Shown here: one piece after another, positions 1-44,114 of the stretch | Layout: each line of letters starts with the position of its first letter | Numbering within the stretch: the stretch's first letter is position 1 | Source: Thermoanaerobaculia bacterium | GTDB taxonomy: Bacteria > Acidobacteriota > Thermoanaerobaculia > Multivoradales > UBA5704 | Direction of reading: 5' to 3' | Length of the DNA: 49,581 nt | Assembly: GCA_044226625.1 (NCBI GenBank) | Contig: JBGAGQ010000050.1 | Span: 1 to 49,581 of the forward strand | Position numbers and translations under genes: made by a program | Notes under the pieces: generated by a model | Told to the model about the DNA's origin: nothing | Seen by the model: only the letters and a program-made list of their open reading frames with translations | Database searches by the model: none

Positions 1-2
1 TT

Positions 3-3869: not shown

Positions 3870-5176
3870 CCGTTCTTGGGTACCATCCGATAGACCCGGC
3901 CCTCGAACGTCCCGAGCCAGATCTCGCCGTCGCGGTCTTCGCCGAAGCTCACCACGCTCCAAGCCCGTTCGGGGAGCTGCCGCACCTCGTAGCCCGAGGG
4001 CCCGGGCTTCGCCGCCCAAACCCGGCCCGAGCAGTAGTCGCCGAACAGGTAACGGCCGACGAGGCTCGGGATCTTCCGACCGCGGTAGACGTAGCCGCCG
4101 GTCACCGAGCAGTCGCCGTCGTCGTGGCCATACTCGAGCACCGGGAGGGTGAGGTTCGGGGAGCCGCAGGTGGGAGTGTCCGCCTCGCAAGCGTCGTCGG
4201 CGAAACAGAGGGTGCCCTCCATCGGTTTCCAGCCGAAGTTGACGCCCGCGCCGCGTCCAGCCGGAATCCGATCGACCTCCTCCCGGCGGTTCTGGCCGAC
4301 GTCGCCGATCCACAGATCGCCGGTCTGGCGGTCGAAGCTAAAGCGCCAGGGGTTACGCAGGCCGATCGCCCACGCCTCGTCGGGGAGGCGGTTCTCGCCG
4401 AGATAGGGGTTATCGGGCGGAATCGCATAAGGCCGCCCGCCGGTCGAACGATCGACGTCGATCCGCAGCATCTTGCCGAGCAGGTTCACCCGCCGTTGGG
4501 CGAAGCAGGACGGGTCGCCGGCCGAGCCGCCGTCGCCCATGCCGACGTAGAGATAGCCGTCGGGCCCGAACTGGAGCTGGCCTCCGTTGTGGTTGCTGTA
4601 TGGTTGATCGACCCAGAGCACGCGGACCGCGGAGGCTGGATCGGCCTTGTTGGGGTCGGCCGGCGACCGGCGGTAGCGGGCGACCACGGTGTCCCCGTCG
4701 GGGTCGGTGTAGTTGACGAAGAAGAGGCCGTTCTCGTCGTAGCGCGGATGGAAGGCCATCGACAGCAGGCCCCCTTCCCCCTCTTCGGTCACGTGATCGG
4801 AGATGTCGAGGAACGGCTCGGCGAGAACCTTCCCCTGCGACAGGATGCGGATCGCGCCGTTCCGCTGGACGACGAACAGGCGGTCGTCCCCCTGGGGAGC
4901 GCGCGCCGGCGCGGTGATGTAGATCGGGACCGAGGGAAGGCTCGCGACCTCTTGGAGCGCGACGTCTTCGAGCGGGCCGGCGGAGGTGAACAGCACGTTG
5001 CCCGTGTTCGGCCCGGCGCCGTGGGTTGGCTTCAGGCGCGGCCCCGGCAATGGCGGCTCCGGCCCGCCGCCGCAGGCCGAAAGGACCGCTGCCGCGCTCA
5101 CGACCGCTGCGCCCAGGGCTCGGGATCCGAACCGAGCCGACAGGGGGTGGGCGAGCCCGTGGGACGCGCATACCAT
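3866..5176 (-). CDS. PQQ-dependent sugar dehydrogenase (glucose/sorbosone dehydrogenase family) lipoprotein
   Basis: Lipobox LSAC; GLLSMAFHP, NHNGGQLQFGPDGYLYVGMGDGG, GLRNPWRFSFD, GDVGQN and SFGED motifs. Confidence 0.9.
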   Translation of the reverse strand: MVCASHGLAHPLSARFGSRALGAAVVSAAAVLSACGGGPEPPLPGPRLKPTHGAGPNTGNVLFTSAGPLEDVALQEVASLPSVPIYITAPARAPQGDDRLFVVQRNGAIRILSQGKVLAEPFLDISDHVTEEGEGGLLSMAFHPRYDENGLFFVNYTDPDGDTVVARYRRSPADPNKADPASAVRVLWVDQPYSNHNGGQLQFGPDGYLYVGMGDGGSAGDPSCFAQRRVNLLGKMLRIDVDRSTGGRPYAIPPDNPYLGENRLPDEAWAIGLRNPWRFSFDRQTGDLWIGDVGQNRREEVDRIPAGRGAGVNFGWKPMEGTLCFADDACEADTPTCGSPNLTLPVLEYGHDDGDCSVTGGYVYRGRKIPSLVGRYLFGDYCSGRVWAAKPGPSGYEVRQLPERAWSVVSFGEDRDGEIWLGTFEGRVYRMVPKNG

Positions 5177-17160: not shown

Positions 17161-17529
17161 TCAACTCAAGGGATTGGTCACGCGGAGGTCGGGGATCCAA
17201 TCGAAATCGGCGGTATTGGCGGTGATCAGCTCCAGGTCGTGAACGAGGGCGGTCGCCGCGATCAGTGCGTCCCCCAGGCTTACGGCCTTCTTTTGTCGCA
17301 ACGAAGTCGAGCATTCGAGGATCTCGACCGAGATCTGAAGCATGGGTGCGGCGACGAAAAAGTCTTCGAAAAGCCGACGCTCGCGTTCCAGAAGCCGATG
17401 GTACCCGAGAACCTCGACGTAGCTGACGACCGAGACCGCCGGAGATTGCGTTGCGATGAGCCTGCGAAGGGCGCGATGTTCGGGCTTTGAGGCGTAGATG
17501 ATGATGTTGCTGTCGATCAGCACGATCAA
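17161..17529 (-). CDS. vapC: PIN-domain VapC-type toxin
   Basis: LIDSNIII, SYVEVLG and DALIAATALVHDLELITANTADF carry the PIN acidic residues. Confidence 0.9.
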   Translation of the reverse strand: MIVLIDSNIIIYASKPEHRALRRLIATQSPAVSVVSYVEVLGYHRLLERERRLFEDFFVAAPMLQISVEILECSTSLRQKKAVSLGDALIAATALVHDLELITANTADFDWIPDLRVTNPLS

Positions 17530-17553
17530 GTCAGCACGGAAAAGGCGGCACGA

Positions 17554-17820
17554 TCAATCGCGTCCGGGACCCTGCCGGTCTCGCCGACTCTCCCGCTGCC
17601 AGGAGACGGGGTCGTCGATGTCGACCGGATACGGCACACCGGCGAGCTTCTCGAGCGCGGCGGCCATTCGTTCTCCGGCCTGGCGGCGATCGGAGCGGTC
17701 TTCCGCGACGATCGTCACGTCGACGGGAATCGAGCGTTCGGTACCGATCTCGGGTGGCGTCTCGCCTTGCCATTCGAGACGGTTTCCCGTGAGCACCGCG
17801 CGATAGGTGAGAGTGTGCAT
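17554..17820 (-). CDS. Putative antitoxin
   Basis: 88-aa ORF directly upstream of vapC; beta-rich N-terminus and C-terminal IDDPVSWQRESRRDR. Confidence 0.7.
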   Translation of the reverse strand: MHTLTYRAVLTGNRLEWQGETPPEIGTERSIPVDVTIVAEDRSDRRQAGERMAAALEKLAGVPYPVDIDDPVSWQRESRRDRQGPGRD

Positions 17821-20309: not shown

Positions 20310-23300
20310 TCAGCCCAGGATGATCCGCACCGCGTGCTCCCTGCCGTCGTCGGCGAGCGGGATCTCCTCGCCCTCGACCGGCGCGCCGTCGAGCTCGCGG
20401 GAGACGACGCCTTTCATCACCGCCCGCGGATTCTCGACCTGGACGAGGTATCGGGCGGTTCCGTGGCGGACCTCGACCGAGAAGCCGCGCCAGGCGCGCG
20501 GGATACAGGGATCGACGACGAGCCGGTCGCCGCGCTTTCGGACGCCGAGGATCCATTCGACGGCGGCGCGGTACATCCAGGCGGCCGAGCCGGTGTACCA
20601 GGTCCAGCCGCCGCGGCCGATGTGGGGTGGCTCGGCGTAGACGTCGGCCGCGACCACGTAGGGCTCCGTCTTGTAGCGATAGACCCCGGCGCGGGTCGAG
20701 GTGTGATGGATCGGGTTGATCAATGCGAACAGCTCGCCCGCGCGATCGCCGTCCCCGAGCATGGCGAACGCGATCACGGTCCAGATCGCGGCGTGCGTGT
20801 ACTGGCCGCCGTTTTCGCGCACGCCCGGCGGATAGTCCTGGATGTAACCGGGGTCGTGCCCGGCGCCCGTGCGGGTCTCGGGGTCGAATGGCGGGGCGAA
20901 CAGCCGGATCAGCCCGTTGCCCCGTTCGACCAGGAGCGCGTCGACCGCCATCATCGCGCGGTGGGCACGTCCCGGCTCGGCGGCGCCCGAGATCGCTCCC
21001 CACGACTGCGCGATCGAATCGATCCGGCACTCGGCGTCCCCGGCCGAGCCGAGCGGGGCGCCGTCGTCGTAGTAGGCGCGCCGATACCAGCCGCCGTCCC
21101 ATCCCGAGGTTTCGAGCGCGGCTCGCAAAGAGCTCGCGCGCGCCCGCCAGCTCTCCGCACGCGGGCCCTCGCCGCGCGCCTCGGCGATCGGAGCGAAGCC
21201 GTCGATCACCGCGAGCAGGAACCAGCCGAGCCAGATGCTCTCTCCCTTGCCTTCGAGGCCCACCTTGCTGAACCCGTCGTTCCAATCGCACGAGCCGATC
21301 CGCGGCAGGCCGTGGGGCCCGGCGACGAGCGAGCGGTCGATCGCCCGCGCGCAGTGCTCGTACAGGGAACCGACCTCGGCGGAGATCAGGGGCTGGCGGT
21401 AGTCCTCGTGCTGCCCTTCGGGGATCGCGGGCTGTTCGAGGAACGGCAGCGACTCGTCGAGCACGGCGCGGTCGGCGGTCGCCGCGACGTAATGGGCCGC
21501 GGCGAACGGAAGCCAGAGCAGGTCGTCCGAGCAGAGGGTGCGAATGCCGCGGCCGCTCGGCTCGTGCCACCAGTGCTGGACGTCCCCTTCGTGGAATTGG
21601 CGCGCGGCGGCGCGCAGGAGCTGGGCTCGGGCGAGCTCGGGCTTGGCCAGGACGAACGCCATCGAGTCCTGGAGTTGGTCGCGGAAGCCGAACGCACCGC
21701 TCGACTGGTAGAACGCCGTGCGTCCCCAGATGCGGCTGGAGAGCGCTTGGTAGAGGAGCCAGCGGTCGACCATCCGGTCGAACGCCGGGTCCGGCGTGCG
21801 CGCGACCAGCGCGCCGAGCACCTGGTCCCACGACGTTTCGACGTCGGCCAAGAGAGCGGAAACGTCCGCCCGGGTATAGCGGGCGAGCAGATCCAGCGCC
21901 CCCGCGCGATCCGCGCCCTGGCCGAGCAGGAAGGTCACCTCCGCGGTTCCACCTGGAAGCAGATCGACGCGCGAGGCGAGCGCGGCGCAGGGATCGAGGC
22001 CGGCGCCCGTCCGGCCCGACCAGACGGTGCGCGTGAGCAGACCGGCCGGCGCCTCGAGCGTGCCGTGGCGGCCGAGAAATTCGCGCCGGTCCGCGGTCGA
22101 GGCGATGCGGTGCCCCGACAGCCAAGCGAAGGCGACCCGTTCGGCGAAGTCGTCGGAGAGTCGGTTGTGGGCGAGCAGAGCCCCCGTCCGCTCGTCCCGT
22201 TCGGTGACCACGAACGGCCCGGAGGCGGGCCTCGCGTTGCCGAGCACCCATTCGACGTAGGCGGCGACCGAGAGTCGGCGACGCCGCGACGAGAGGTTCT
22301 CGAGCCGCAGTCGCGCGACGCGGACGGGATCGCTCGGCGCCACGAAGACCAGCAGCTCGAGCGCCACACCGTGCCCGTCGTAGGCGAAGCGGCTCCAGCC
22401 CTGGCCGTGGCGGCAGACGTAGGTTCCCTCCTCTTCGCGGATCGGCAGGGCGGTCGGGCTCCAGAGCACGCCGGTCTCGTCGTCTCGAACGTAGATCGCC
22501 TCGCCCGGCGGGTCGGCGATCGGGTCGTTCGACCAGGGAGAGAGCCGATTCTCGCGCGCGTTCTCCGACCAGGTGTAACCGGCGCCGGATTCCGAGATCT
22601 GGCAGCCGAAGCGGGGATTCGCGATCACGTTGATCCAGGGGAGCGGCGTCCGCTGCCCCGGCTTCTGGACGATCGCGTATTCGCGCCCGTCGCGGGCGAA
22701 CCCGCCGATGCCGTTCCATTCCGACAGCTCGCGTTCGGGCGGCGCCTCGAGCCTTCGCACCTCCGGCGGCGCGGGCTCTCGGACCGGTCCCGGCGGAGGC
22801 GGAACGCGTGCCGGCACGTGGCGCCGGAGCTGCTCGGACAGCGATCCCTCGCGCGCCGAGAGCACCACGCGGGCGACCGTCCGCAGCAGGTCGCGCTGGT
22901 CCGCGGGGACCTGATCGGCGCGCAGGACGAACACCGATCCGGCAGGCCCCGTCGATCCCGCGGCGCCGGACGCCGTACCCGTCCGCGCCGGCGGCTGGGC
23001 GCGGACCAGGCGCAGCAGCTCCTCCTGGAGCTCCGCCACGTAGTCGCTCGGTTGCTCGTTGAGGATCACGAGATCGGCCGCGAGCCCTTTGCCGCGCCAG
23101 AACTGGTGCGCGAGAAGCGTCTGGCGCACGATCTCTCGGTCGTCGATCCGGTCGATGCGCAGCAGCACGAGCGGCAGGTCGCCCGAGATGCCGTGCCCCC
23201 AGAGGGCGCGGATCGGCAGGCGGTTGCGCGCGAGCACGGCGGCCGGCGAGCGCAGCTCGGGGGTCGTGAAGGCGAGATCGCCCGCCAGACGCTGAAATAG

Positions 23301-26300
23301 ATGGGCCTCGTCCGGATGGAGCCCCGCGTGCCGCTGCTCGACCTGGGCGAGCGTCCAGGCGAGGCTCGCCGCGCGCTGGAACGAGCCGACCTCGGCGTAT
23401 TTTTCGGCCCAGCGGACGGCCTCATCGCGGCTCGCGGCGAGCCCGGTCGCGAACAGGGCGCGGACCCGGCCACCGGGCGGCACGATCAGAGTGCGCCGCA
23501 AGCTGAACACGGGATCGAGCACGAAGCCGGCCGTGCCCGAGAGCGGGCGCCCCTCGACGATCGCGAGCGGCCGCCGCAGGCTCGCCCCGCGGCCCAGGAA
23601 TCGTGCGCGGTCCGTCTCGTGCTCGGGCGGGCCGAACGTCTCGCCCTCGACGGCGAGGACGTGCATCGCCCAAGGGGCTGGATCCGTCGAAGCGCCCGAG
23701 GCCGACGTCGCGCGGCGGGTGGCCAGCAGGGCATGCGGCCAGCGGAGCGCCTCTGTCTTGACGAACAGCTTCGAGAACGCGGGATGGGCTTCGACGGCCC
23801 GGTCCGGCGCGAGCGCGATCTCGGCGAAGGAGGTGATCTCGATCGTCCGCGGCTCCTCGCCGTCGTTGCTGATCGTCAGGCGCCGCAGCTCCGCGCTCTC
23901 CTCGGTCGAGACGACCATCTCGAGCCGGCTCGCGATCGCCCCGTCGGTGCGTTGGATCTCGACCTTTTCGGCCGAGAAAAGGACGCGGTAGCGGTCCGGT
24001 TCGACCGCCGTCGGCTGGTAGCCGGCCGACCAGACCGCGCCCGAGCCCGCGTCGCGCAGGTAGAGGAACGACCCCGAGTCGTCGCGGGTCGCGTCCTCGC
24101 GAAAGCGGGTGACCGAGAGGCCGCGCGAGCGGCTCCAACCCGCCCCGGACGAGGTCATCAGGACGGCGTAGTCGAGGCCGGCGAGCAGGTGGGCGCGCGG
24201 CGTCTCGAAGTGCGGCGAATCGAGTCGTCGCGGGCCGGCGTGCGCCTCGGCGCGCACCCGCGAGGAACGCTTCTCCTCGGCCATCGGCCGCGCCACCACG
24301 ACGTCGCGCGGCGTCCGCTCCTGGAGCAGAAGCTCCGCCGCGCGGCCGAGCGGATGGCGATGGAAACGCGCTTTGAGCGCGCCCCCGGACAGCACGTCGG
24401 CGAGTGCCAGGAGCGTCATCCCCTGGTGGTGCGCCATGAACGAGCGGATCAGGGCGAACGGCTCGCCCTCCGGCACCCGGCGGCGGGTGAAGTCGAGCGC
24501 CTCATAGAAGCCGTACCGGCCGCGGACGCCGATCTTGTCGAAACGCTCGAAGTTGGCGAGCGCGGCGCGGGGCTCCACCAATGCCGCGAGCGCGGTGGCG
24601 TACGGCGCCACGACCAGCTCGCCGCGCGGCGGGCGCTTCAACGCGAGGCGCGGCACGCCGGTCGGGCCGTATTGGTAGTTGAGGTCGAGATCGCGCTCGT
24701 TCTTCGCGCTTTCGGAGATCCCCCAGGGAACCCCCTGCTCGGCGGCGTAGCGGATCTGCTCGCCGACCGCCAGGCGGGTGGTCGAGCCGAGCAGGCTGCG
24801 GATGGGCTCGAGCAGCACCAGACTGGGCATCAGGTATTCGAACATCGAGCCCGACCACGACAGGAGCGCCGAGCCGCGGCCGATCGGCGCGAGCGGTCGG
24901 CCGAGGTGGAACCAGTGGGTCGCCGGGACGTCCCCCTTCGCGATCGCGACCAGGCTCGCGAGGCGCGCTTCCGAGGCGAGCAGGTCGTAGCGCGAGCCGT
25001 CCATGCGCCGGTCGTCGACGAGATAGCCGATCGCGAGCAGTTGGCGCTCCGGGTCGAGCAGGAACTTGAAATCCATCGCCCGGGCGAACCGCTCGGCGCG
25101 CGCCGCCAGCTCGACGAAGCGCCCCCGGATGCGCTCCTCCTCGCCGGGCTCGTCGGCCCCGAGGAGATCGCGCTCCCGCGCGGCCGTGGCGGAGCGGACG
25201 GCCTCCGCCCACGCGAGAGCCTCGCCCGCCGACCCCTGCCGGGCCGGGGGCCTGGTTCGCGGCCGGGCCCCCGTAGGGCTCCCGGCGGGATTCGCGGCAC
25301 CGGACGCTCCCGGTCCGTCGGTCGACGGACCGAGCGCTTTCTGCCCCGCGGGGGCGAACGGTACGGACGCCGAGCCCTCCGAGGGGTTCAAGGCGGCGAG
25401 GACGTCGATCAAGACGTCGGCGCTCCGGCCCACCTCGAGGAGCGAAGAACGCTCGTCGGCGCCGTCCGCTTCGGAAGAACCTTCAGCGCTTTGGAGAGCC
25501 CGCGCGAGCGCGCCCAAACCCTCGCGCAGGTCGCGCGTTCCGACCCCGCCGCTCCGTCCCGCCGGAGGGATGCGGGCCACCGCCCCGCGGAGGAGCGCGA
25601 ACGTGTCGGCGAGGCCGCGCAGGGCGGCCTGCCGGCGCGCTTCCGACCGCGCGGAGGCGGAGGCGAGCTCCGTGCAAGCGGCCGACAGGGCGATCAGGTG
25701 GCCGCAGAGGTTGCCGCTGTCGACCGTCGAGACGTACCGCGCGGGGAGCGTTTCGAGCGTCCGCGTATCGAACCAGTTCAGCAGGTGGCCGTTGTAGCGC
25801 TCCAGGCGATCGATCGTCGAAAAGGTTGCCTCCAGCCGCTCGAGCAGCTCGAGCCGGCCGATCCAGCCGAAGTCGTACGCCGCGACCGCAGCGAGGAGGC
25901 CGAGCCCGACGTTCGTGGGGGAGGTGCGGTGGGCGACCTTTTCCTGCGGATCCTCCTGGACGTTGTCGGGCGGGAGGAAATTCTCCTCGGCCGACGCGAA
26001 GCGCTCGAAATAGGCCCAGCTCTGGCGCGCGAGGCGGCGTAGGTAGCCGACCTCGGACGGCGCGAGCGTCGGCCGGGCGACGACGTCCATCGGCCGGCTC
26101 AGGCGGCGGGCGAGGGCGGGCGCGAGCAGCCAAGCGAGGGCGAACGGCAGCGTCGCGGAAAGGGCGCTCGGCCGGACGATCGCGACCGCCGCGGGGACCA
26201 GCAGCGCCGCGGCCGGTGCGCCCCAGAGCCGGCGGTAGAAGTCGGAAAGATCGAGCGTCGCCGCCGCGCCGGCCTGCGCGGCGGTGACCCATTCGAGCAG

Positions 26301-29300
26301 GCGCCTCCGGACGCCGAGGCGCCAGATCGTGCGGAGGATCGAATCGATCCGCATCGCCGCCCGAGCGGGCATGAGGGCGAGCGCGACCGCCGCCTGGGTC
26401 GAGGCGGTCTCGATCTCGTCGAGCAGGGCGCCCAGATGGGTTCGCTTGGCGATCCCGCGCCGGCTCGGCAGCAGGGCGACGATGGTCGAGAGCAGGTTCG
26501 GCAGGGCGACCAACAGGGCGACCGCCAGACCCCAGAGCCAGGCGCCCCCGGGCGACCAGGGGACCGCGACCCAGCCGAAGGCGAGCAGGAAGAGGGCGGC
26601 CGGCGCCGCGAGCGAGCGGCGCAGGTTGTCGATCATCTTCCAGCGCGTGAGGGGAGAGAGCGGGTTGCTTCCGCGGCCCCCTCCGGCCGTCGGCACCTGG
26701 TCGCGCAGCCAGGGGAGCAGCTGCCAGTCGCCGCGCACCCAGCGCGATTGGCGCGCGGCGCCGGCCAGCAGGTGGGTGGGAAACTCGTCGAACAGGACGA
26801 CGTCGCTCAAGAGGCCGGCGCGCGCGAAGCCCCCTTCGAACAGGTCGTGCGACAGGAGGGCGTTTTCCGGCGCCCGCTCGGCGAGCGCGCGCTCGAACGC
26901 GTCGACGTCGTAGATCCCCTTGCCGACGAACGAGCCCTCGCCGAACAGATCCTGGTAGACGTCCGACACCGCCGCCACATAGGGGTCGACGCCGGTAGGG
27001 CCCGAGAAGCTCTTCTGGTAGAGCGAATCCTCGCCGTACACCGGCAGCAGCGAGACCACGCGCGGCTGGAGGATGCCGTACCCGGAGGCCACACGGCCGG
27101 TCGCCGGATCGAAGGTCGCGCGGTGGAGGGGGTGCGCCATCGCGCCGACCATCGAGCGGACGGCGCCCGCGGGCAGACGGGTGTCGGCGTCGAGCGTGAC
27201 GACGTAGCGCACGCCGCGCGGCACCTCCGGCGGAGGGCCGCCGGGCCGCTCTTCGAATGTCGTGTCCGTCGCGCCGCGGAGCAGGCGGTTGAGCTCGTGG
27301 AGCTTGCCCCGTTTGCGCTCCCACCCCATGAAGCGCCCTTCGCTCGCGTTCCAGAGCCGGCGGCGATGGAGGAGGAAGAAACGCGGTCCGCCCGAAGGGG
27401 TCGGGCCGTAACGCTCGTTGAGCGCCGCGATGCCGGCGCGGGCCGCGGCGAGCAGGGCGTCGTCCTCGTCGCGCCGTTCGCGGTCGGCGTCGGGAAAATC
27501 GGCGAGCAGCGCGAACGTAACGTCGCCCTCGGCGTTCGCGAGATAGTGGACCTCCAGGCGCTCGATCTGCTCGGGGATCGACGACGCGTCGAACAGGGTG
27601 GGCACCACGACCATGGTGCGCTCGTCCTCGGTGGGTCCGGCCGGAAGGGCGAGCTTCGGCAGCCGGCGCGCCGGGGCGAGGGCGGCGACCCATCGGTTGA
27701 CCAGGGAGAAAGCCAGGTCGGAGACCGGCACCAGAGCGGCGAGGGCGAGCACGATGAGCGCCGCGGGCGCCCCGCCCGCCCCCTCGAGCAGGGCGAGCGC
27801 GGGCGCGAGGAGCACCGCCGTGGTGAGCGCCGCGGCGCCGAGGTAGCCGGGCAGGCCGGCCCGGATCGCCGGGCGATAGAGCCGTTCGCGTGTTCCGGGG
27901 CGGAAGCCGATCTCCCGCTCGAACGACCGCCGGCCGGCGCCCACCAGCGGATGGCCGACGTGGCGCGCGGCCGGGTCGGCGGTCGCGTCGCGGGTCGCAT
28001 CGCGGGTCGCCTCGCCGGTCGACGAGGAACTCGCCGAGGCGGTTCCAGCGGTTTTATCGGGAAACGCTGAAGCGGTTTTATCGGGAAGCGCCGGAGCGGT
28101 TTTATCGGGAAGCGCTGAAGCGGTTTTATTGGGAAGCGCCGGAGCGCTCCGGGCGCGCTCGACCGCGAGGCGGGCGACCTCGTGCTCCGACCGCCGCGCG
28201 CCGCGCGCGAGCTCTTCGATCGCGTGGCGGTAGAGATCGCGGCTCTCGAAGTCGAGCCGGGCGTAGATGCCGGCCGGATCGCCGCGCAATGCATCGTCGA
28301 CGAGCGAGGCGTCCTCGACGAATTGCGCCCAATCGTAGGCCGCGATCCGCCGCATGCTGTAGATCACGTTCGCGACGCTCACCTGAGTCGCGGCCTGGCG
28401 CTGGTGCTCCAGGCGGACGATCCCCTCCTCGGTCGTCCCGAGCTCGGCGAGCCGCGCCCTGAGCCGGCCGAGCGGCGAGGTGGGATCGCTCTCCTTCGGA
28501 CCGTCTTGCGGATCGCCGTTGGGGTCGTTCTTGGGGTCCTCGTCGGGCAGGCGCTCGAGGAGCTGAACGGCGTAGGCCAGGTCCGCGCTCTCGGGGCTCA
28601 AGTCGAGGCTTCGGGCGTCGGGCTCCGTCGGTCCCGGCCGTCGCCCGGACGAGCCCACGCGACCCTCGGCCGACTCCGCGGCGAAACCGAGCGCGGCGTC
28701 CGCCACCCGATCGGCCCGCTCGCGCGCGGCGAGCCGGTCGACGACGCCGTCGGCCAGCCGGCGGAGGTTCTCGATCAGGGCGATCCGCAGGTGGATGCCG
28801 ATCGCCCACAGCTCGCCGATCGCGAGCGGGGCGCTCCGCTGGTAGCCGCGGACGAAAGCTAGGAGGAGATCCGGGTCGAAGCGGCTGTCGGTGTGCGCGA
28901 CGAACGTCCAGGCGAGCGCGTAGACGCGCGGCAGGCCGTCCCACGGCGGCGACTCGAGCTTCGGCAGCTCGCGATAGAAGCGCGGGGAGAGGTCCTGGCG
29001 GACCTGACGCTCCTGCTCGAGGACCAGGTAGAAGTTGTCGACCAGCCAGGCGGCGCCGAAGGTGATCGCGCGCCGCTCCTCGACCGCCTGCTCGAGCGTC
29101 GCCCGCGCCGCGCGCAAGGCGGCGCGGTTCTCCTTGAGGCGGGCGAGCAGCGGCCGGCCGCGGCGGACGCCGGCGCCGGCATCGCGGGCGCCCAGCTCTT
29201 CGCCCCGCTGCTCCAGCGCTTCGGCGCCGAGTACCTCGGCGCGAATCGGTTCGGAGAGTCGTTTGAGCCCGGGAGCGCCCGCGGACGAAGAAGCGGGTGT

Positions 29301-29327
29301 GGGAATGAGTGAAGGTAAAATCGTCAT
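20310..29327 (-). CDS. cgs: Cyclic beta-1,2-glucan synthetase (Cgs/ChvB/NdvB-type) with C-terminal GH94 phosphorylase region
   Basis: 3005 aa; GWERKRGKL, TLDADT, GKGIYDV, SHDLFEG, RWVRGDWQ, PPDNVQE, RTSPTNVG, YDLLASEARL, SWSGSMFEYLMP, WGISES, MAHHQGM, and GH94 motifs QSSGAFGFRDQLQD, DWNDG, RENGGQYTHA, GWTWYTGSA. Confidence 0.93.
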   Translation of the reverse strand: MTILPSLIPTPASSSAGAPGLKRLSEPIRAEVLGAEALEQRGEELGARDAGAGVRRGRPLLARLKENRAALRAARATLEQAVEERRAITFGAAWLVDNFYLVLEQERQVRQDLSPRFYRELPKLESPPWDGLPRVYALAWTFVAHTDSRFDPDLLLAFVRGYQRSAPLAIGELWAIGIHLRIALIENLRRLADGVVDRLAARERADRVADAALGFAAESAEGRVGSSGRRPGPTEPDARSLDLSPESADLAYAVQLLERLPDEDPKNDPNGDPQDGPKESDPTSPLGRLRARLAELGTTEEGIVRLEHQRQAATQVSVANVIYSMRRIAAYDWAQFVEDASLVDDALRGDPAGIYARLDFESRDLYRHAIEELARGARRSEHEVARLAVERARSAPALPNKTASALPDKTAPALPDKTASAFPDKTAGTASASSSSTGEATRDATRDATADPAARHVGHPLVGAGRRSFEREIGFRPGTRERLYRPAIRAGLPGYLGAAALTTAVLLAPALALLEGAGGAPAALIVLALAALVPVSDLAFSLVNRWVAALAPARRLPKLALPAGPTEDERTMVVVPTLFDASSIPEQIERLEVHYLANAEGDVTFALLADFPDADRERRDEDDALLAAARAGIAALNERYGPTPSGGPRFFLLHRRRLWNASEGRFMGWERKRGKLHELNRLLRGATDTTFEERPGGPPPEVPRGVRYVVTLDADTRLPAGAVRSMVGAMAHPLHRATFDPATGRVASGYGILQPRVVSLLPVYGEDSLYQKSFSGPTGVDPYVAAVSDVYQDLFGEGSFVGKGIYDVDAFERALAERAPENALLSHDLFEGGFARAGLLSDVVLFDEFPTHLLAGAARQSRWVRGDWQLLPWLRDQVPTAGGGRGSNPLSPLTRWKMIDNLRRSLAAPAALFLLAFGWVAVPWSPGGAWLWGLAVALLVALPNLLSTIVALLPSRRGIAKRTHLGALLDEIETASTQAAVALALMPARAAMRIDSILRTIWRLGVRRRLLEWVTAAQAGAAATLDLSDFYRRLWGAPAAALLVPAAVAIVRPSALSATLPFALAWLLAPALARRLSRPMDVVARPTLAPSEVGYLRRLARQSWAYFERFASAEENFLPPDNVQEDPQEKVAHRTSPTNVGLGLLAAVAAYDFGWIGRLELLERLEATFSTIDRLERYNGHLLNWFDTRTLETLPARYVSTVDSGNLCGHLIALSAACTELASASARSEARRQAALRGLADTFALLRGAVARIPPAGRSGGVGTRDLREGLGALARALQSAEGSSEADGADERSSLLEVGRSADVLIDVLAALNPSEGSASVPFAPAGQKALGPSTDGPGASGAANPAGSPTGARPRTRPPARQGSAGEALAWAEAVRSATAARERDLLGADEPGEEERIRGRFVELAARAERFARAMDFKFLLDPERQLLAIGYLVDDRRMDGSRYDLLASEARLASLVAIAKGDVPATHWFHLGRPLAPIGRGSALLSWSGSMFEYLMPSLVLLEPIRSLLGSTTRLAVGEQIRYAAEQGVPWGISESAKNERDLDLNYQYGPTGVPRLALKRPPRGELVVAPYATALAALVEPRAALANFERFDKIGVRGRYGFYEALDFTRRRVPEGEPFALIRSFMAHHQGMTLLALADVLSGGALKARFHRHPLGRAAELLLQERTPRDVVVARPMAEEKRSSRVRAEAHAGPRRLDSPHFETPRAHLLAGLDYAVLMTSSGAGWSRSRGLSVTRFREDATRDDSGSFLYLRDAGSGAVWSAGYQPTAVEPDRYRVLFSAEKVEIQRTDGAIASRLEMVVSTEESAELRRLTISNDGEEPRTIEITSFAEIALAPDRAVEAHPAFSKLFVKTEALRWPHALLATRRATSASGASTDPAPWAMHVLAVEGETFGPPEHETDRARFLGRGASLRRPLAIVEGRPLSGTAGFVLDPVFSLRRTLIVPPGGRVRALFATGLAASRDEAVRWAEKYAEVGSFQRAASLAWTLAQVEQRHAGLHPDEAHLFQRLAGDLAFTTPELRSPAAVLARNRLPIRALWGHGISGDLPLVLLRIDRIDDREIVRQTLLAHQFWRGKGLAADLVILNEQPSDYVAELQEELLRLVRAQPPARTGTASGAAGSTGPAGSVFVLRADQVPADQRDLLRTVARVVLSAREGSLSEQLRRHVPARVPPPPGPVREPAPPEVRRLEAPPERELSEWNGIGGFARDGREYAIVQKPGQRTPLPWINVIANPRFGCQISESGAGYTWSENARENRLSPWSNDPIADPPGEAIYVRDDETGVLWSPTALPIREEEGTYVCRHGQGWSRFAYDGHGVALELLVFVAPSDPVRVARLRLENLSSRRRRLSVAAYVEWVLGNARPASGPFVVTERDERTGALLAHNRLSDDFAERVAFAWLSGHRIASTADRREFLGRHGTLEAPAGLLTRTVWSGRTGAGLDPCAALASRVDLLPGGTAEVTFLLGQGADRAGALDLLARYTRADVSALLADVETSWDQVLGALVARTPDPAFDRMVDRWLLYQALSSRIWGRTAFYQSSGAFGFRDQLQDSMAFVLAKPELARAQLLRAAARQFHEGDVQHWWHEPSGRGIRTLCSDDLLWLPFAAAHYVAATADRAVLDESLPFLEQPAIPEGQHEDYRQPLISAEVGSLYEHCARAIDRSLVAGPHGLPRIGSCDWNDGFSKVGLEGKGESIWLGWFLLAVIDGFAPIAEARGEGPRAESWRARASSLRAALETSGWDGGWYRRAYYDDGAPLGSAGDAECRIDSIAQSWGAISGAAEPGRAHRAMMAVDALLVERGNGLIRLFAPPFDPETRTGAGHDPGYIQDYPPGVRENGGQYTHAAIWTVIAFAMLGDGDRAGELFALINPIHHTSTRAGVYRYKTEPYVVAADVYAEPPHIGRGGWTWYTGSAAWMYRAAVEWILGVRKRGDRLVVDPCIPRAWRGFSVEVRHGTARYLVQVENPRAVMKGVVSRELDGAPVEGEEIPLADDGREHAVRIILG
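28047..28146. repeat. Coding 24-bp tandem repeat (4 copies) inside cgs
   Basis: AGCGGTTTTATCGGGAA(A/G)CGC(TGA/CGG) x4, encoding ALP(N/D)KTA(S/P) units. Confidence 0.9.
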
Positions 29328-40341: not shown

Positions 40342-40401
40342 GCGGAGGTTCTCCTTTTGAAGCGTCCTTTTGAAGCGTTCGCGCCGGTCGATGCTAGCAC
40401 G

Positions 40402-41061
40402 GTGCCAACGCCCCCCTCGGGGGGCGCGGCCGGCCCCGGACCGGTCGGCATCGTCCTCGCGGGGGGCGCGAGCCGCCGCTTCGGAAGCGACAAAGCGCGG
40501 CTGGAAATCGCAGCCCTGGAGCGCGGTGACCGCCAGGGCCAAGGCACGGAAACCCTCGCGGCATGGGCCTTTCGCCGCCTCGCGGAGGTCTGCGCCGAGG
40601 TCGCGGTGGCGGACGCCGGACGCGGCGTCGTGCCCGGCGAGCGCTCGCTTCCCGACGGCCCCGGACGCGGCCCCGCGGCCGGCCTGCTCGGCGCCGCCCG
40701 TGCCTTTCCGGCACGTCGTCTCTTGGCTTTAGCGTGCGACCTGCCCGCCGTGCCGGCCGCGCTGCTCGCGAGGATCGCGGCGATCGGCGAGGGAGAGGGC
40801 GTCGACCTCGTGCTGCCCCGCTGGGACGGCGGAGCCGAGCCGCTCGCCGCCCTCTACGCCCCGCGCGCGCTCGCCGAGCTGGAGCGCCGGGTCGCGGCAG
40901 GGAACTACGCCCTCCACGATCTCGGCGAGGGGCTCGATGGGAACGTGGTCTGGTTGAGTGAGCCCGAGCTTTCCACCTTCGGCCAGCCGCGGGAGATCTT
41001 CGCGAACCTGAACACCCCCGAAGACCTCAAGCGCTGGTCGGCCCGCGTTGAGCGGGGATGA
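40402..41061 (+). CDS. mobA: Molybdenum cofactor guanylyltransferase
   Basis: [31 protein letters not shown] and NLNTPED motifs; start uncertain (40357 or 40402). Confidence 0.88.
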
Positions 41062-41093
41062 CCCGCTTCCGGTCCCGACGGAGCGGGCCTAGG

Positions 41094-41607
41094 CGACAAG
41101 TCCGCTGAGCGAGCGGATGGTTCCTCTGGAGAGCGGGAGCATTCCCGCAGGCTCCGGGAACGCTCTTCGAAACTCCGGGAAGTTTCCCGCCCTGCTCAGG
41201 ATGACTCCTGAGGTCCGCAGGAACTTTCCTGGGTGCCTCAGGACTCTTTCGCGAGCCTCCCGGAAGAGTCCTGCCATCTAGCGGAATTTTCCTCTTCCTG
41301 CGGGGAACGCTCCCGGCTTGGCCAGGAATCTTCCTGCCACCAGGCGGAGTGCTCCGCTTGTCCCCCGGATTTTTCCTCGCACAGCGCGGAATCTTCCCGG
41401 CATTCCAAGGAACGGTCCTCAGCCTTCCCGGAACCTTCCTGAGCAACTGCGGAATGTTCCGAAGCTTTCAAGGAGCCTTCCGGAGTAACCCAGGATCGCT
41501 CCGCGCATCGAGAGGAAAAGTCCTCGCGAACGCCGCCGCCTTCCGCCGGCCCGGCGTCGGCTTCCGGGAAGCCCCGGGATGCCTCCGGCGTCACCTGGAA
41601 GCGTTTC
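41094..41607. repeat. Phased array of palindromic GGA-N4-TCC boxes with an exact 21-bp period and non-repeating spacers
   Basis: Perfect boxes start at 41115, 41136, 41178, 41199, 41220, 41262, 41283, 41304, 41325, 41346, 41367, 41388, 41409, 41430, 41451, 41472, 41493, 41514 and 41577. Degenerate in-phase boxes start at 41094, 41157, 41241, 41535, 41556 and 41598. Confidence 0.93.
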
Positions 41608-41640
41608 GCGTACGCTCTCGGGAGTTGTGCAATGGCGGTA

Positions 41641-41649
41641 TGTTAGTAT
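41641..41649 (+). promoter_or_regulatory. Extended -10 promoter candidate for the small gene downstream of the array
   Basis: TGTTAGTAT (TGn-TAGTAT) in an AT-rich patch between the array and the GGAGGAG RBS at 41682-41688. Confidence 0.5.
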
Positions 41650-41694
41650 CTCTTTTCGACGACATTCGACAACCTTTTGGCGGAGGAGATTCCC

Positions 41695-42069
41695 GTGGGA
41701 GAGAAATCGTACGCGTCTCGGCTCGACCGTTGGCAGAGCATGGTGCAGAACATCCAGGAGATCCTGCCCGATCTGCCGGGCGTTGAGACCACCTACGCGC
41801 TCGCGCGCCAGAAGGTCTCCGACCTACGGGAGGCCCAGGCCGATCTCCAGCGTCTCGAGGGCCAGCGCAAGGAGGTCGTCGTCCGCCGCCGTCAGCTCGA
41901 CGTCGAAGCCGAGCGGGCCGTCCGCCGCCTCGCGGCCCTCGCCCGCGCCCACATGGGCTTCTCGAATCCCCTCCTCGAGACCTTCGGCGTCCGCTCCGAA
42001 GACCGTGCCCGCCGCGGCCGGGCAGTCAAGGGAACGGCGAAGGGGGAGGGAGCGGAAGCGAAGGAGTGA
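41695..42069 (+). CDS. Hypothetical 124-aa alpha-helical/coiled-coil protein with a basic C-terminal tail
   Basis: GGAGGAG RBS before GTG, typical GC3-rich codons; MGEKSYASRLDRWQSMVQNIQE...LREAQADLQRLEGQRKE...HMGFSNPLLETFGVRSEDRARRGRAVKGTAK. Confidence 0.8.
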   Translation: MGEKSYASRLDRWQSMVQNIQEILPDLPGVETTYALARQKVSDLREAQADLQRLEGQRKEVVVRRRQLDVEAERAVRRLAALARAHMGFSNPLLETFGVRSEDRARRGRAVKGTAKGEGAEAKE

Positions 42070-42137
42070 GGCGTGGCCTCAAGCGCTCGGCGCCCCGTTT
42101 CCTTCCAGCGAGCGTTTCCGGTCGAAGGTACCGCGGC

Positions 42138-44114
42138 TCACTCCACCTCCAACCGGAACACCCCCAGACCGTAAGCGCCGGTGTAGAGCGTCGCGGGTTC
42201 CCTCGGATCGAGGGCGAGGGGGTAGTAGCCGAACGCCGAGGCCGGAAGGCCGTCCTCTAGGGGCTCGAAATCGCGGATTCGGGGATTCCAGCGATGGATT
42301 CCGGCGGTTGGGCCGGAGACGTAGATCCGGTCGGGGCGGATCGGGTCGATCACGATCGCGTTGATCGATTTGCCTTGAAGGGCTCGTCCCAGGGGGCGGA
42401 AGCTGATTCCGCCGTCTTCGCTCACGAAAAGGCCCCGGGTGGTCCCGACAAAGACCCGCCGGCCGTCTCGCGGATCGACCGCCAGGGTGCGTTTGCCGCG
42501 ATAGGGCAGACCCCGGCCGACTCTCGCCCAGGTCCGCGCGTCGTCGGTGCTCTTGAAGAGGCGTCTCGCAGAGAGGCCGAACAGCACGCCGGAGCGCGAG
42601 GGGTCGAAGCCCAGGGCGGTGAAGTCCGTCGGCCGGACGAGAGAGGCCCAGGACCTCCCGCCGTCGCGGCTGCGCAGGAAGAAAGAGCCTTGGCCGACGA
42701 AATGAATGAAGTAGGTTCCTGCCACGTACAGCGTTTCGGGGCGGGTCGGATCCAGAGCGAAGGCGCCGAAGTCGACGGAGCATAACGAGCCTCCGCAGCT
42801 ATAGGGGAACGGCAGCGCGTTCCAGCTGTGACCGCCGTCGTCGCTGCGCATCGGAAAGTTCGAGACGTAGAGGTACGTGGGGCCGTAGATCCGGTCGGGG
42901 ACGTGCGGGTCGAAGGTAAGCGAATAGGGCTCCGGGCCGGAGTACTCGGAGTGCAAGCGGCTCCAGGTGGTTCCCCGATCGAGGCTTGCGAACACGCGCC
43001 CTTCCGCGGTCGCGACCACCTTGGACGGCCCCGACGGCGCGACGGCGATCGATTGCGCGTAGGTGATCGGAATTCCGCGGCTCGGGTTGCGCCAACGTAC
43101 GCCGGCATCGGTGGATTTCCACAGACCCTGGCTGCCCGCCGCCAGCACGGTGCCGGGAGCGGCCGGCGAGGTCGCGACCCGTTGAATCAGATCCGGGGGA
43201 ATCTGCCTCTCGATCGGGCTCCACGTCGCGCCTTGGTCGTGGCTCGAGATGACGCCGAGGTTGTAGCTGGTTCCGAACAGCGTGCCGTCCGCCGTGACCG
43301 CGAGGTCGCGGAGGTAGACCGTCGACGGCTGCGTCCAGGTAAGTCCGCCATCCAGCGACCGGAGGACCGGCCCGGGTTCGGCTCCTCCCGTCGAAGGGGG
43401 GTAGGCGTAGAAAACGTAGAGGGTGTCGGGATGCGCAGGGTCGAAGACCCAGTGGGGCTGAAGCGAGTCGAATCCGAGCGGAGCGGCGAATTCGGGAACT
43501 TGGATCCAATGGACGCCGCCGTCCGTGCTTCGGAAGAGGGTTTGTACCTCGCTCGTCAGGCTGGGCCCGAGTGCCGAGAACAGGAGGCCTTCGGCGAAGG
43601 GGGACGAGGCGACCGACAGCACGAAGGCCCCGGGAAACGCGGCCAAGCTCCAGGAGTCTCCGTGATCGGTCGACCGATAGAGGCCCTGATACGACGTCGC
43701 CGCGAAAAGGTGCCCCTCGCTATGCGAGTCCGTCGCGAGCTCGTTGACGGTGAGGTTGATTGCCACGGGAGCCCACGTCGCTCCGCCGTCCTGGGAGCGA
43801 AACAGCTTTCCAGCCCAGTCGCGGGTGAACAGGGTCTCCGAGTCGAAGGGGTCGACCCGGAGGTCGCCGGTTAGAGCACCGGGCGGCGTTCCCGCGTATC
43901 GCCAGGAGACCGCGTCGTCCTCGCTCCGATAGATCTTGCCCCCGGGTGTGGCGAGGTAGGCGGTTCGAGGGGATGACGGGGCGTAGGCGATGGCCTGGAC
44001 CGCGCCGCCTCGGGGCGAGGCGGGAACCCAGGTTTGGGCGAGAGCCGGCGAACCGGATCCGACCAGCCCGACACCCAACCACGTTGCGGCGACGAGCTTG
44101 CGCGCTCGAACCAT
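42138..44114 (-). CDS. Secreted BNR/Vps10-like beta-propeller repeat protein
   Basis: GGAGG RBS, signal peptide, and many S-x-D-x-G-x-T/S-W Asp-box repeats. Confidence 0.85.
   Translation of the reverse strand: MVRARKLVAATWLGVGLVGSGSPALAQTWVPASPRGGAVQAIAYAPSSPRTAYLATPGGKIYRSEDDAVSWRYAGTPPGALTGDLRVDPFDSETLFTRDWAGKLFRSQDGGATWAPVAINLTVNELATDSHSEGHLFAATSYQGLYRSTDHGDSWSLAAFPGAFVLSVASSPFAEGLLFSALGPSLTSEVQTLFRSTDGGVHWIQVPEFAAPLGFDSLQPHWVFDPAHPDTLYVFYAYPPSTGGAEPGPVLRSLDGGLTWTQPSTVYLRDLAVTADGTLFGTSYNLGVISSHDQGATWSPIERQIPPDLIQRVATSPAAPGTVLAAGSQGLWKSTDAGVRWRNPSRGIPITYAQSIAVAPSGPSKVVATAEGRVFASLDRGTTWSRLHSEYSGPEPYSLTFDPHVPDRIYGPTYLYVSNFPMRSDDGGHSWNALPFPYSCGGSLCSVDFGAFALDPTRPETLYVAGTYFIHFVGQGSFFLRSRDGGRSWASLVRPTDFTALGFDPSRSGVLFGLSARRLFKSTDDARTWARVGRGLPYRGKRTLAVDPRDGRRVFVGTTRGLFVSEDGGISFRPLGRALQGKSINAIVIDPIRPDRIYVSGPTAGIHRWNPRIRDFEPLEDGLPASAFGYYPLALDPREPATLYTGAYGLGVFRLEVE

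What the first reader, a model, noticed from the sequence alone, without database searches (positions are those of the whole stretch)
41094..42069. Candidate two-part module: phased array plus promoter plus small coiled-coil protein with a basic tail
Seen in sequence: the array ends about 35 bp before an AT-rich extended -10 (TGTTAGTAT, 41641-41649). That is followed by a strong RBS and a monocistronic 124-aa ORF (41695-42069), which converges on the next gene. The protein reads as two long amphipathic helices, then a G-F-S-N-P-L-L-E-T-F-G turn motif, then an Arg/Lys-rich tail (RARRGRAVKGTAK). It has no signal peptide, TM segment or enzyme motif. Inference: this is a nucleic-acid-binding dimer whose cognate sites are the adjacent boxes, giving an autoregulated cassette inserted between unrelated genes, with no transposase or ParA partner nearby.
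Basis: partly seen in the sequence, partly recalled or inferred. Interest (0 to 1): 0.85.

Follow-up and report, generated by a model that had tools for sequence, protein, structure and literature searches.

The report
Phased palindrome array with small protein
A half-kilobase stretch holding about two dozen short palindromes spaced exactly 21 bases apart sits in front of a small, uncharacterised coiled-coil protein gene, and this pairing is conserved in related soil bacteria (Acidobacteriota), so it looks like a new self-contained DNA-site-plus-binding-protein unit that has yet to be tested at the bench.

Summary
Window 41110-41613 holds 24 units of exactly 21 bp, each carrying a dyad box S-M-GGA-R-N-N-Y-TCC-K-S. 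It is followed by an extended -10, an RBS and a 124-aa ORF (41695-42069).

- **Non-coding array:** every frame contains stops and there is no codon-phase GC signal.
- **Conserved pairing:** all 8 close homologues with upstream DNA, from 5 other MAGs, carry the same array in the same register to the start codon. Spacers are randomised but there are no indels.
- **Box type follows protein clade:** a second clade has arrays of CAC-N2-GTG boxes at the same positions. This reflects only one switch on the tree.
- **Protein:** it belongs to a family named only from Acidobacteriota (121 clusters at 50% identity) with no Pfam or NCBIfam model and no PDB fold match. It models as a long helical hairpin and a predicted antiparallel homodimer.
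- **Neighbours:** no ParA, transposase or regulator is a conserved neighbour.

My best reading (confidence about 0.5) is that the protein binds its own phased operator array cooperatively and represses its own promoter. It may also have an architectural role. DNA binding is inferred, not shown.

The parts
41110..41613 (.). Array of 24 units of exactly 21 bp. Each unit carries a dyad-symmetric box with consensus S-M-GGA-R-N-N-Y-TCC-K-S. The array is non-coding.
   Evidence: Searches give the register, the logo and the chance control. One search shows flat GC by codon phase and 1-2 stops in each of the six frames in the window (1-12 across the 9 loci).
41115..41124 (.). First exact box core (GGATGGTTCC). 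This distal box is positionally conserved in other loci as GCGGATCGGTCCGC-like.
41577..41586 (.). Last exact box core (GGATGCCTCC). A 2-mismatch box follows at 41598-41607.
41641..41649 (+). Extended -10 promoter element TGTTAGTAT (TG-n-TAnnnT).
   Evidence: TG, TA and the final T are invariant in 9 of 9 aligned loci. The generic scan did not call a promoter because there is no -35 match.
41683..41689 (+). Ribosome-binding site GGAGGAG, 5 nt before the start codon.
   Evidence: AGGAG invariant in 9 of 9.
41695..42069 (+). 124-aa ORF with a GTG start. Predicted structure: helical hairpin (H6-22, H31-87), conserved G-F-x-N-P-x-L-E-x-F-G-V-R motif, and basic helix 102-115. pI 9.96.
   Evidence: GC by codon position is 0.78/0.47/0.86, which is typical of coding sequence here.

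Best explanation
The array and the gene form one self-contained cis/trans unit. The 124-aa protein forms an antiparallel coiled-coil dimer. Many copies of it bind side by side to the roughly 24 dyad boxes. Because the boxes are exactly two helical turns (21 bp) apart, they all face the same side of the DNA. In the relatives the array runs up to the promoter, and the last, degenerate box lies where a -35 element would be. Full occupancy should therefore shut off the protein's own extended -10 promoter, giving steep (cooperative) autoregulation. Twenty-four sites is far more than autoregulation needs, so the loaded array is probably also the functional product: a defined nucleoprotein structure about 0.5 kb long on the chromosome.

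Shown here: the array, its phasing, its non-coding nature, its conservation together with the gene, the promoter elements, the predicted fold and the predicted dimer.

Inferred: that this protein is what binds the boxes, that binding represses the promoter, and any architectural role.
For: 1. STRICT LINKAGE. Nine of 9 clade-1 loci with upstream DNA (window plus L001-L007 and L009, 5 other MAGs) have the array. Of 168 exact boxes, 166 are in the same register relative to the start codon.

2. SELECTION ON BOXES AND SPACING. Core positions carry 1.65-1.95 bits and spacers 0.04-0.33 bits (177 boxes from 8 loci, with L009 dropped as 93% identical to L003). Arrays are only about 0.5 identical pairwise, which means the spacers are randomised, yet there are no indels.

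3. DYAD SYMMETRY WITHOUT BASE-PAIR COVARIATION IN THE CENTRE. Mirrored positions 9/12, 10/11 and 4/17 are at shuffle level. Positions 5/16 give 88 pairs against 73.9 expected (p=0.016) and 3/18 give p=0.003. This fits two protein half-sites better than a hairpin.

4. CLADE-SPECIFIC BOXES IN THE SAME GENOMES. Clade 2 (L010-L012) has CAC-N2-GTG boxes, about 20 of them phased in L012. The box centres are -92.5, -113.5 and so on from the start codon, the same as in clade 1. The GGA-type clade is one branch (support 89/96).

5. NO OTHER CONSERVED PARTNER. The neighbours differ between contexts, and no ParA, transposase or regulator is shared. Boxes outside the arrays are not above expectation, which argues against a global regulon.

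6. PROMOTER GEOMETRY. The extended -10 is invariant in 9 of 9 loci. In the 8 relatives the last degenerate box lies at the -35 position.

7. PROTEIN PROPERTIES.
- The AlphaFold2 model has pLDDT 92.5.
- The homodimer model scored 0.67, against 0.00 for the best of 3 controls. That mark was reached by 20 of 30 proteins solved as pairs of one chain and by 1 of 23 solved as single chains. These counts hold only roughly because my own alignment was used. The runs agree in at least 83% of contacts, and partner pLDDT is at least 72.
- Conserved basic positions are 45, 65, 78, 84, 100, 106 and 107 in the wider family.

8. DECAYED COPIES. L015 lost most of its array, the promoter and about 21 codons in a single deletion.
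Against: - No DNA-binding domain is recognisable. Pfam, NCBIfam, PHROGs and PADLOC gave nothing above their cut-offs. A PDB sequence profile gave nothing better than E=0.06. Foldseek against the PDB gave nothing better than E=5.
- Net charge is modest: 24 K+R against 19 D+E.
- The predicted antiparallel dimer places the two basic tails at opposite ends. By my estimate from helix length, not measured on coordinates, they are about 90 A apart. One dimer therefore cannot put both tails on one 14-bp dyad box, so the binding mode needs extra assumptions.
- Box/protein co-variation is a single event on the tree, so it is not statistical evidence of co-evolution.
- In clade 3 (L013, L014) the longer periodic region lies 0.4-0.9 kb upstream. 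It is separated from the gene by a conserved segment of about 260 nt and, in L013, by a Pterin_4a ORF. Only 2-4 boxes lie next to the gene.
- In the window itself the -35-position box is not recognisable.
Confidence: 0.5

Rival explanations
1. The array is a real protein-binding platform, but the binder is an unlinked transcription factor (one for each box type). The small coiled-coil protein would then be only the tightly controlled product, for example a stress or structural protein.
For: The protein has no recognisable DNA-binding fold. HTH genes lie near some copies: MerR next to the L004 array, and Xre-type genes near L003/L009 and L001. The box/clade co-variation is one event.
Against: No regulator is shared between contexts, and the 5 mobA-type loci have none adjacent. 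Box matches outside the arrays are at or below chance in about 190 kb of held DNA, so any such factor would have no other targets there. Two box types coexist in one genome, each tied to its own protein clade.
Confidence: 0.27
2. The array works as RNA. It would be transcribed, for example by read-through from mobA, as a string of small hairpins acting as a leader, sponge or processing substrate.
For: The array strand folds better than shuffles (z = -5.75; 0 of 100 shuffles fold as well). Mirrored flank positions 3/18 and 5/16 pair slightly more often than shuffled.
Against: A low folding energy is expected by construction for any set of like palindromes, and the minimum-energy fold pairs distant boxes rather than forming local hairpins. 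The central mirrored pairs show no covariation. The conserved promoter lies downstream of the array. There is no Rfam match. A stem of GGA/UCC around a 4-nt loop is marginal.
Confidence: 0.06
3. The array is a centromere-like or chromosome-organising site, and the protein is an adaptor to an unlinked motor or partner. Autoregulation would be secondary. This is a special case of the best explanation.
For: The 20-24 phased sites resemble plasmid centromere arrays (recalled knowledge). There are 1-5 gene copies per MAG. The coiled-coil rod could bridge or polymerise.
Against: No ParA, ParM or TubZ-type gene was found near any copy among the ORFs I selected and scanned against Pfam. tblastn found no homologue in 72,556 plasmid or 50,697 phage records.
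Confidence: 0.12
4. The array is a neutral or selfish tandem repeat, or part of a protein-coding repeat, with no link to the gene.
For: All six frames are fairly open in the window, and 21 bp equals 7 codons. Clade-2 arrays show recent 42-bp duplications (0.85 identity at lag 42 in L012).
Against: Each of 9 loci has 1-12 stops in every frame and flat GC across codon phases, whereas the adjacent CDS has GC3 of 0.77-0.88. The conserved positions are contiguous and palindromic. Register and copy number are kept while the spacers have randomised. The arrays were seen only upstream of this gene family in the held DNA.
Confidence: 0.03

Closest known systems
ParR-parC of type II plasmid partition (R1, pSK41, pB171). 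The properties of ParR/parC are recalled, not looked up.
   Same: A small dimeric protein is encoded just downstream of an array of about 10 or more closely phased repeats. The repeats overlap its own promoter, and the protein coats the array cooperatively and autorepresses.
   Different: ParR has a ribbon-helix-helix fold and a ParM partner, and its repeats are direct at 10-11 (or 20) bp. Here there is no RHH match, the models show no strand, and no actin-like gene is nearby. The boxes are dyads at 21 bp. The setting is chromosomal with several copies per MAG.
Omega repressor / heptad arrays of inc18 plasmids, and StbA-stbDR of R388 (recalled)
   Same: A small repressor binds 7-10 contiguous short repeats upstream of promoters, including its own, with cooperative filament-like binding.
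   Different: Those repeats are 7-11 bp and contiguous, and the proteins are RHH or HTH. Here the period is 21 bp, there are about 24 units, and the protein belongs to a family with no model. The single weak NCBIfam StbC hit (1 of 112 members, E=0.0014) is far below any cut-off.
ArgR/AhrC ARG boxes (recalled)
   Same: Palindromic boxes with 21-bp centre-to-centre spacing, so that the bound subunits sit on one face of the helix.
   Different: ARG operators have 2 (rarely up to 4) boxes of 18 bp, bound by a hexamer with a winged-helix domain. There is no such domain here, and there are about 24 boxes.
H-NS-like nucleoid proteins (H-NS, MvaT, Lsr2) and KfrA (recalled)
   Same: A protein of about 120-140 aa with an N-terminal antiparallel coiled-coil oligomerisation region and a short basic C-terminal part. 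These proteins form filaments along DNA and autoregulate.
   Different: There is no Histone_HNS or KfrA_N match. Those proteins read AT-rich DNA loosely, not a fixed array of GC-flanked dyads.
Plasmid iterons with Rep (P1 incC/incA, F, R6K; recalled)
   Same: Repeats spaced about two helical turns apart flank and overlap the promoter of the adjacent gene, whose product binds them.
   Different: Iterons are direct repeats bound by a Rep initiator of about 250-350 aa with winged-helix domains. Here the boxes are dyads, the protein is a 124-aa helical hairpin, and there are no other origin features.

Membership tests
ParR/parC type II partition | Array of phased repeats upstream of, and reaching, the promoter of the binding protein's own gene | tested here: met
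   24 phased units end about 34 bp before the extended -10. They are dyads at 21 bp, not direct 10-11-bp repeats; the latter figure is recalled.
ParR/parC type II partition | Ribbon-helix-helix DNA-binding domain | tested here: not met
   No RHH family at E<=1 in Pfam for the window protein, and none at E<=0.01 among 112 family members. The AlphaFold2 models start with a helix at residue 6 and contain no strand.
ParR/parC type II partition | Adjacent actin-like ParM (or other motor) gene | tested here: not met
   None among the 79 neighbouring ORFs I selected in 16 loci or the 37 window ORFs scanned (4, 33).
ParABS (ParB/parS) | ParB N-terminal/HTH domains and a neighbouring ParA ATPase | tested here: not met
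   No such Pfam hits in the protein or in the neighbours.
Iteron/Rep replication control | Direct repeats bound by an adjacent winged-helix Rep initiator | tested here: not met
   The box logo is dyad-symmetric. The adjacent protein is a 124-aa helical hairpin.
CRISPR array | Repeats of about 23-47 nt alternating with unique spacers of similar size; cas genes or a leader | tested here: not met
   The whole period is 21 bp, made of a 14-bp box and a 7-bp spacer. No cas domains were found in the window or loci. Register and copy number are conserved across species.
REP/BIME extragenic palindromes | Many dispersed extragenic copies per genome | tested here: not met
   Outside the array the window has 18 core matches, against about 26 expected for the whole window. 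The loci have 0-4 outside their arrays. Only about 190 kb was examined.
H-NS-like nucleoid proteins | N-terminal coiled-coil self-association | tested here: inconclusive
   An antiparallel homodimer is predicted (score 0.67 against 0.00 for the best of 3 controls; mark reached by 20 of 30 solved pairs of one chain and 1 of 23 single chains). This is a prediction only, and higher-order assembly was not tested.
H-NS-like nucleoid proteins | H-NS/Lsr2/MvaT-type C-terminal DNA-binding domain | tested here: not met
   No Pfam or NCBIfam match and no PDB match.
Unnamed family of about 115-170-aa proteins, named only from Acidobacteriota (alignment A4) | Signature W13 ... P28 ... long helix ... G88-x5-L94-x2-F-G98, followed by a basic stretch | tested here: met
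   121 representatives at E<=0.001 among 1.84 billion proteins. P28, G88, L94 and G98 are at least 90% conserved in 112 sequences. The window protein carries all of them.

The most novel reading that the evidence does not exclude
This would be a new kind of DNA-templated protein assembly. Rod-shaped antiparallel dimers of about 9 nm (a previously undescribed DNA-binding fold) would polymerise end to end along a ruler of 24 dyad boxes spaced 7.1 nm apart. The result would be a nucleoprotein rod of fixed length, about 170 nm. Several orthogonal rods per Acidobacteriota chromosome, each paralogue with its own box type, would act as chromosomal landmarks for organisation or segregation without a linked motor. 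Autorepression would serve only as the fill gauge.
Probability: 0.18. Interest if true: 0.85.

Novelty: new variant of a known kind. Interest (0 to 1): 0.7.

Why it matters
Acidobacteriota are abundant in soil and poorly studied genetically. This locus offers a compact, testable unit of two parts: a 0.5-kb array and a 124-aa protein from a family with no model and no solved structure.

If the protein binds the array, three things would follow:
- a new DNA-binding fold would be defined;
- it would provide a natural example of specificity switching between paralogues (GGA-N4-TCC against CAC-N2-GTG at identical positions);
- it would give a naturally phased 24-site scaffold, useful for studying cooperative, ultrasensitive regulation or chromosome landmarks.

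If the protein does not bind, the array still needs an unknown binder. The exact retention of a 21-bp register across species, while the spacers have randomised, is strong evidence of function.

Tried and rejected
- **Coding repeat:** rejected. Every frame has stops in every locus and there is no codon-phase GC signal.
- **Known RNA family:** none. An Rfam E-value search over 40900-42200 found nothing. A gathering-threshold search over all 16 loci found only a tRNA in L004.
- **Known protein family:** none reached a cut-off in Pfam, NCBIfam, PHROGs or PADLOC. The weak NCBIfam PQLLE_fam hits (1 of 22 members, then 2 of 112; best E=3.4e-5; 19 bits against a cut-off of 80 in the hit) are a lead only. 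A paper search for 'PQLLE' found 0 papers.
- **Solved structures:** the sequence profile's best hit was E=0.06, to Mediator Med21, a coiled coil. Foldseek on both models gave nothing below E=5.
- **ESM Atlas:** only unnamed Acidobacteriota clusters.
- **Fused or longer forms:** none found among proteins of 309-2000 aa. The tool itself calls this weak evidence.
- **Plasmid or phage homologues:** none by tblastn.
- **Extra paralogues or arrays in the held DNA:** none beyond the 16 loci.
- **Higher-order 42/84-bp superperiod in clade 1:** not seen.
- **Generic promoter and terminator scan:** nothing called.
- **Cluster member names:** The listing of cluster members could not be run. The taxonomic range of distant family members therefore rests only on the few 'Acidobacteriota' names.
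- **Literature:** seven full-text searches turned up nothing on such arrays or on this protein. Only the search listings (titles and the starts of abstracts) were seen; no paper was opened.
Full report
**1. What is in the window**

Between the stop of a MobA-like nucleotidyltransferase gene (40357-41061, Pfam NTP_transf_3, E=1e-21) and a convergent BNR/sortilin-like gene (42138-44114, minus strand) lie about 1 kb holding two things.

The first is a repeat array. Read in rows of 21 nt, 41110-41613 is 24 units. Each unit has a box of the type C-x-GGA-A-N-N-T-TCC-x-G at the same place in the row.
- The 10-mer GGA-N4-TCC occurs 37 times in the whole window, against 25.84 +/- 5.28 in shuffles.
- Nineteen of the 37 are in this stretch, and all are in one 21-bp register.
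- In 200 Markov simulations of the window, the best same-register count in any 504 bp was 2.
- Tandem Repeats Finder saw only a 2.8-copy fragment, because the 7-11 nt between boxes are unrelated.

The second is a small gene. It has an extended -10 (TGTTAGTAT, 41641-49), an RBS (GGAGGAG, 41683-89), a GTG start at 41695 and a stop at 42069, giving 124 aa.

**2. The array is not coding and is not a known RNA**

In the window and 8 related loci:
- each of the six frames through the array has 1-12 stops;
- GC is flat across codon phases (for example 0.62/0.64/0.64 in the window);
- the adjacent ORF shows 0.78/0.47/0.86.

The conserved positions are contiguous (GGA, TCC) and mirror-symmetric, which a reading frame would not produce. 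Rfam has no match.

As RNA, the array folds better than shuffles (z = -5.75). That is expected for any set of like palindromes, and the predicted fold pairs distant boxes rather than forming local hairpins.

Among 177 boxes from 8 loci:
- mirrored positions 9/12, 10/11 and 4/17 pair no more often than shuffled;
- 5/16 (88 against 73.9, p=0.016) and 3/18 (p=0.003) are mildly enriched.

I read this as two equivalent half-sites for a symmetric protein, not a base-paired stem.

**3. Relatives**

The protein has 21 homologues at E<=0.01 in the 5.8-billion-protein set. All named ones come from Thermoanaerobaculia or Acidobacteriota MAGs. G-F-x-N-P-x-L-E-x-F-G-V-R-x-E and two further arginines are invariant.

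One scan of genome contigs returned 16 loci from 6 MAG assemblies, with 1 to 5 copies per assembly. A tree gives three groups:
- clade 1: window, L001-L009 and L015, support 89/96;
- clade 2: L010-L012;
- clade 3: L013 and L014.

**4.

*Clade 1.*
- All 8 loci with upstream DNA (L001-L007, L009) have the same array.
- Counting the window as well, 166 of 168 exact GGA-N4-TCC matches within 900 bp upstream fall in one register relative to the start codon, from about -580 to -76.
- Each locus has 21-25 boxes with at most 1 mismatch.
- L008 has only 37 bp of upstream sequence and cannot be judged.
- Pairwise ungapped identity of the arrays is 0.45-0.64 (0.93 for the near-duplicate pair L003/L009). 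This is roughly what the boxes alone contribute, so the spacers are saturated with substitutions. Even so, no indel has shifted the register in any locus. That points to selection on both the boxes and the spacing.

*Clade 2.*
- Arrays are present but with a different box, CAC-N2-GTG (mostly CACCGGTG).
- The period is 21 bp with a 42-bp alternation.
- L012 has about 20 phased boxes from -557 to -96.
- L010 is array up to the contig end.
- L011 has its array split by an insertion of about 4.4 kb with inverted ends.
- The promoter-proximal box centres (-92.5, -113.5, -134.5, -155.5 from the start codon) coincide with those of clade 1. The two arrays therefore look like the same structure with the box sequence exchanged.

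*Clade 3.* This clade is less clear. Two to four CCGGTG-like boxes lie next to the gene. A degenerate 21-bp-periodic region lies 0.4-0.9 kb upstream, beyond a conserved segment of about 260 nt and, in L013, a Pterin_4a ORF.

*Truncated copies.* Two copies lack a full array:
- L015 keeps 5 boxes. A single deletion removed the rest of the array, the promoter and about 21 codons.
- L016 is a fragment (residues 38-110) after a PIN-like ORF.

*Arrays without the gene.* In the roughly 190 kb I hold, a periodicity scan found such arrays only upstream of family genes.

*Caveat.* Box type changes only once on the tree. The box/protein match is therefore compatible with co-evolution but does not demonstrate it.

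**5. Promoter**

In an alignment of the 9 clade-1 loci, the positions TG-n-TA-n3-T are invariant, as are AGGAG and the start codon position. In the 8 relatives a last, degenerate box (x-x-A-G-x-G-TTCC) lies 17-25 bp upstream of the -10 hexamer, where a -35 element would be. It is preceded by a well conserved box (GCGGAGCGATCCGC). In the window this last box is not recognisable. Occupying these boxes should hinder RNA polymerase. That step is inference.

**6. Context**

The order PPIase, mobA, array, gene is shared by the window, L002, L005, L007 and L015. The other copies sit among unrelated genes. The module is therefore chromosomal and inherited vertically in at least one location, and it has been duplicated to others.

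No ParA, ParM or regulator is a shared neighbour, and the only transposase-like hit is the L011 insertion. This is based on the 79 neighbouring ORFs I selected in the loci and 37 window ORFs. Box matches outside the arrays are at or below chance.

**7. The protein**

- AlphaFold2 with 112 family sequences gives pLDDT 92.5, with helices at 6-22, 31-87, 92-97 and 102-115. With 22 sequences it gives pLDDT 81.4.
- Foldseek against the PDB finds nothing better than E=5. A PDB sequence profile finds nothing better than E=0.06.
- A homodimer model passed the tool's mark:
  - The score was 0.67, against 0.00 for the best of 3 controls.
  - That mark was reached by 20 of 30 proteins solved as pairs of one chain and by 1 of 23 solved as single chains.
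  - These counts hold only roughly because my own alignment was used.
  - The runs agree in at least 83% of contacts, and partner pLDDT is at least 72.
- The dimer contacts (44 with 68, 47 with 61, 54 with 54, 37 with 79) describe an antiparallel coiled coil centred near residues 54-56.
- From helix length alone I estimate that the two C-terminal basic segments lie roughly 90 A apart, which is of the order of the 71 A between box centres. This was not measured on coordinates. One dimer could therefore reach from one box towards the next, but it could not place both tails on one box.
- The protein is moderately basic: pI 9.96, 24 K+R against 19 D+E. Basic residues at positions 45, 65, 78, 84, 100, 106 and 107 are conserved across the wider family.

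**8. The wider family**

A profile search of 1.84 billion representatives finds 121 proteins at E<=0.001. Nearly all are 115-170 aa and match end to end. P28, G88, L94 and G98 are at least 90% conserved in 112 of them. None of the 112 reaches a Pfam or NCBIfam cut-off. The few named relatives and the Atlas clusters are Acidobacteriota. I could not fetch DNA for these distant members, so whether they also carry arrays is open.

**9. Reading**

The array is almost certainly a protein-binding cis element: it has dyad boxes, exact two-turn phasing, selection on spacing, and it abuts a promoter. The most economical binder is the one gene that always accompanies it, whose clades match the box types and which is predicted to self-associate. 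I put this at about 0.5.

The main rival is an unlinked regulator for each box type, with the small protein as cargo (about 0.27). RNA-level or non-functional readings are unlikely.

Functionally, the closest known things are ParR-parC, omega with its heptad arrays, and StbA-stbDR (recalled). The defining features of those families that I could test are not met: there is no RHH or HTH fold, no motor gene, and the repeats are not direct. It works like them at most; it is not a member.

**10. Limits**

- Nothing here shows binding, expression or phenotype.
- All relatives are MAG contigs.
- The literature statement rests on seven full-text searches in which only the listings were read.

Noticed in passing
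L011:442-4835: An insertion of about 4.4 kb with roughly 30-bp inverted ends splits the clade-2 array. The box CACCGGTG is present at both junctions. One ORF inside it has a weak IS1-type DDE match (E=7e-8).
   Followed up: partly
L015:4925-5100: This locus has the same mobA context as the window, but only 5 boxes remain. One deletion removed the rest of the array, the promoter, the RBS and about 21 codons, leaving a 104-aa ORF.
   Followed up: yes
L013:4180-4440 and L014:4620-4880: A segment of about 260 nt, more than 90% identical between two paralogous loci of one MAG, lies between the distal periodic region and the gene. It contains a terminator-like hairpin, a promoter-like element and several small hairpins, and has no Rfam match. 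L013 additionally carries a Pterin_4a ORF (4384-4782) that L014 lacks.
   Followed up: partly
L016:4621-5237: A truncated family member (residues 38-110, 49% identity) lies directly after a PIN-like ORF and has no array upstream. It is probably a decayed copy.
   Followed up: no
L004:4216-4289: A tRNA gene (62 bits) and a MerR-family gene (3604-4194) lie immediately upstream of this copy's array. Neither occurs at other copies.
   Followed up: no
L008:1-37, L010:1-300, L006:1-210: Contigs tend to end in or just before the arrays, which suggests that the arrays break short-read assemblies. Copies per genome may therefore be undercounted.
   Followed up: no
window 27822-28248: A period-24 internal repeat (identity about 0.52-0.55 at lag 24) lies inside a 3005-aa ORF (20310-29327, minus strand) with GH94 and glucoamylase domains. 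It is probably a coding repeat.
   Followed up: no
L005:5454-6083: A Uma2-family (putative endonuclease) ORF sits between the small gene and the BNR gene. In the window these two genes are adjacent.
   Followed up: no
window 17164-17820: A PIN-domain ORF with a small upstream ORF on the minus strand, which looks like a VapBC-type toxin-antitoxin pair.
   Followed up: no
L013:4398-4411 and L014:4824-4837: A single clade-1-type box (CCGGAATTCTCCGG) is conserved in the leader region of both clade-3 loci. It could be chance or cross-talk between paralogues.
   Followed up: no
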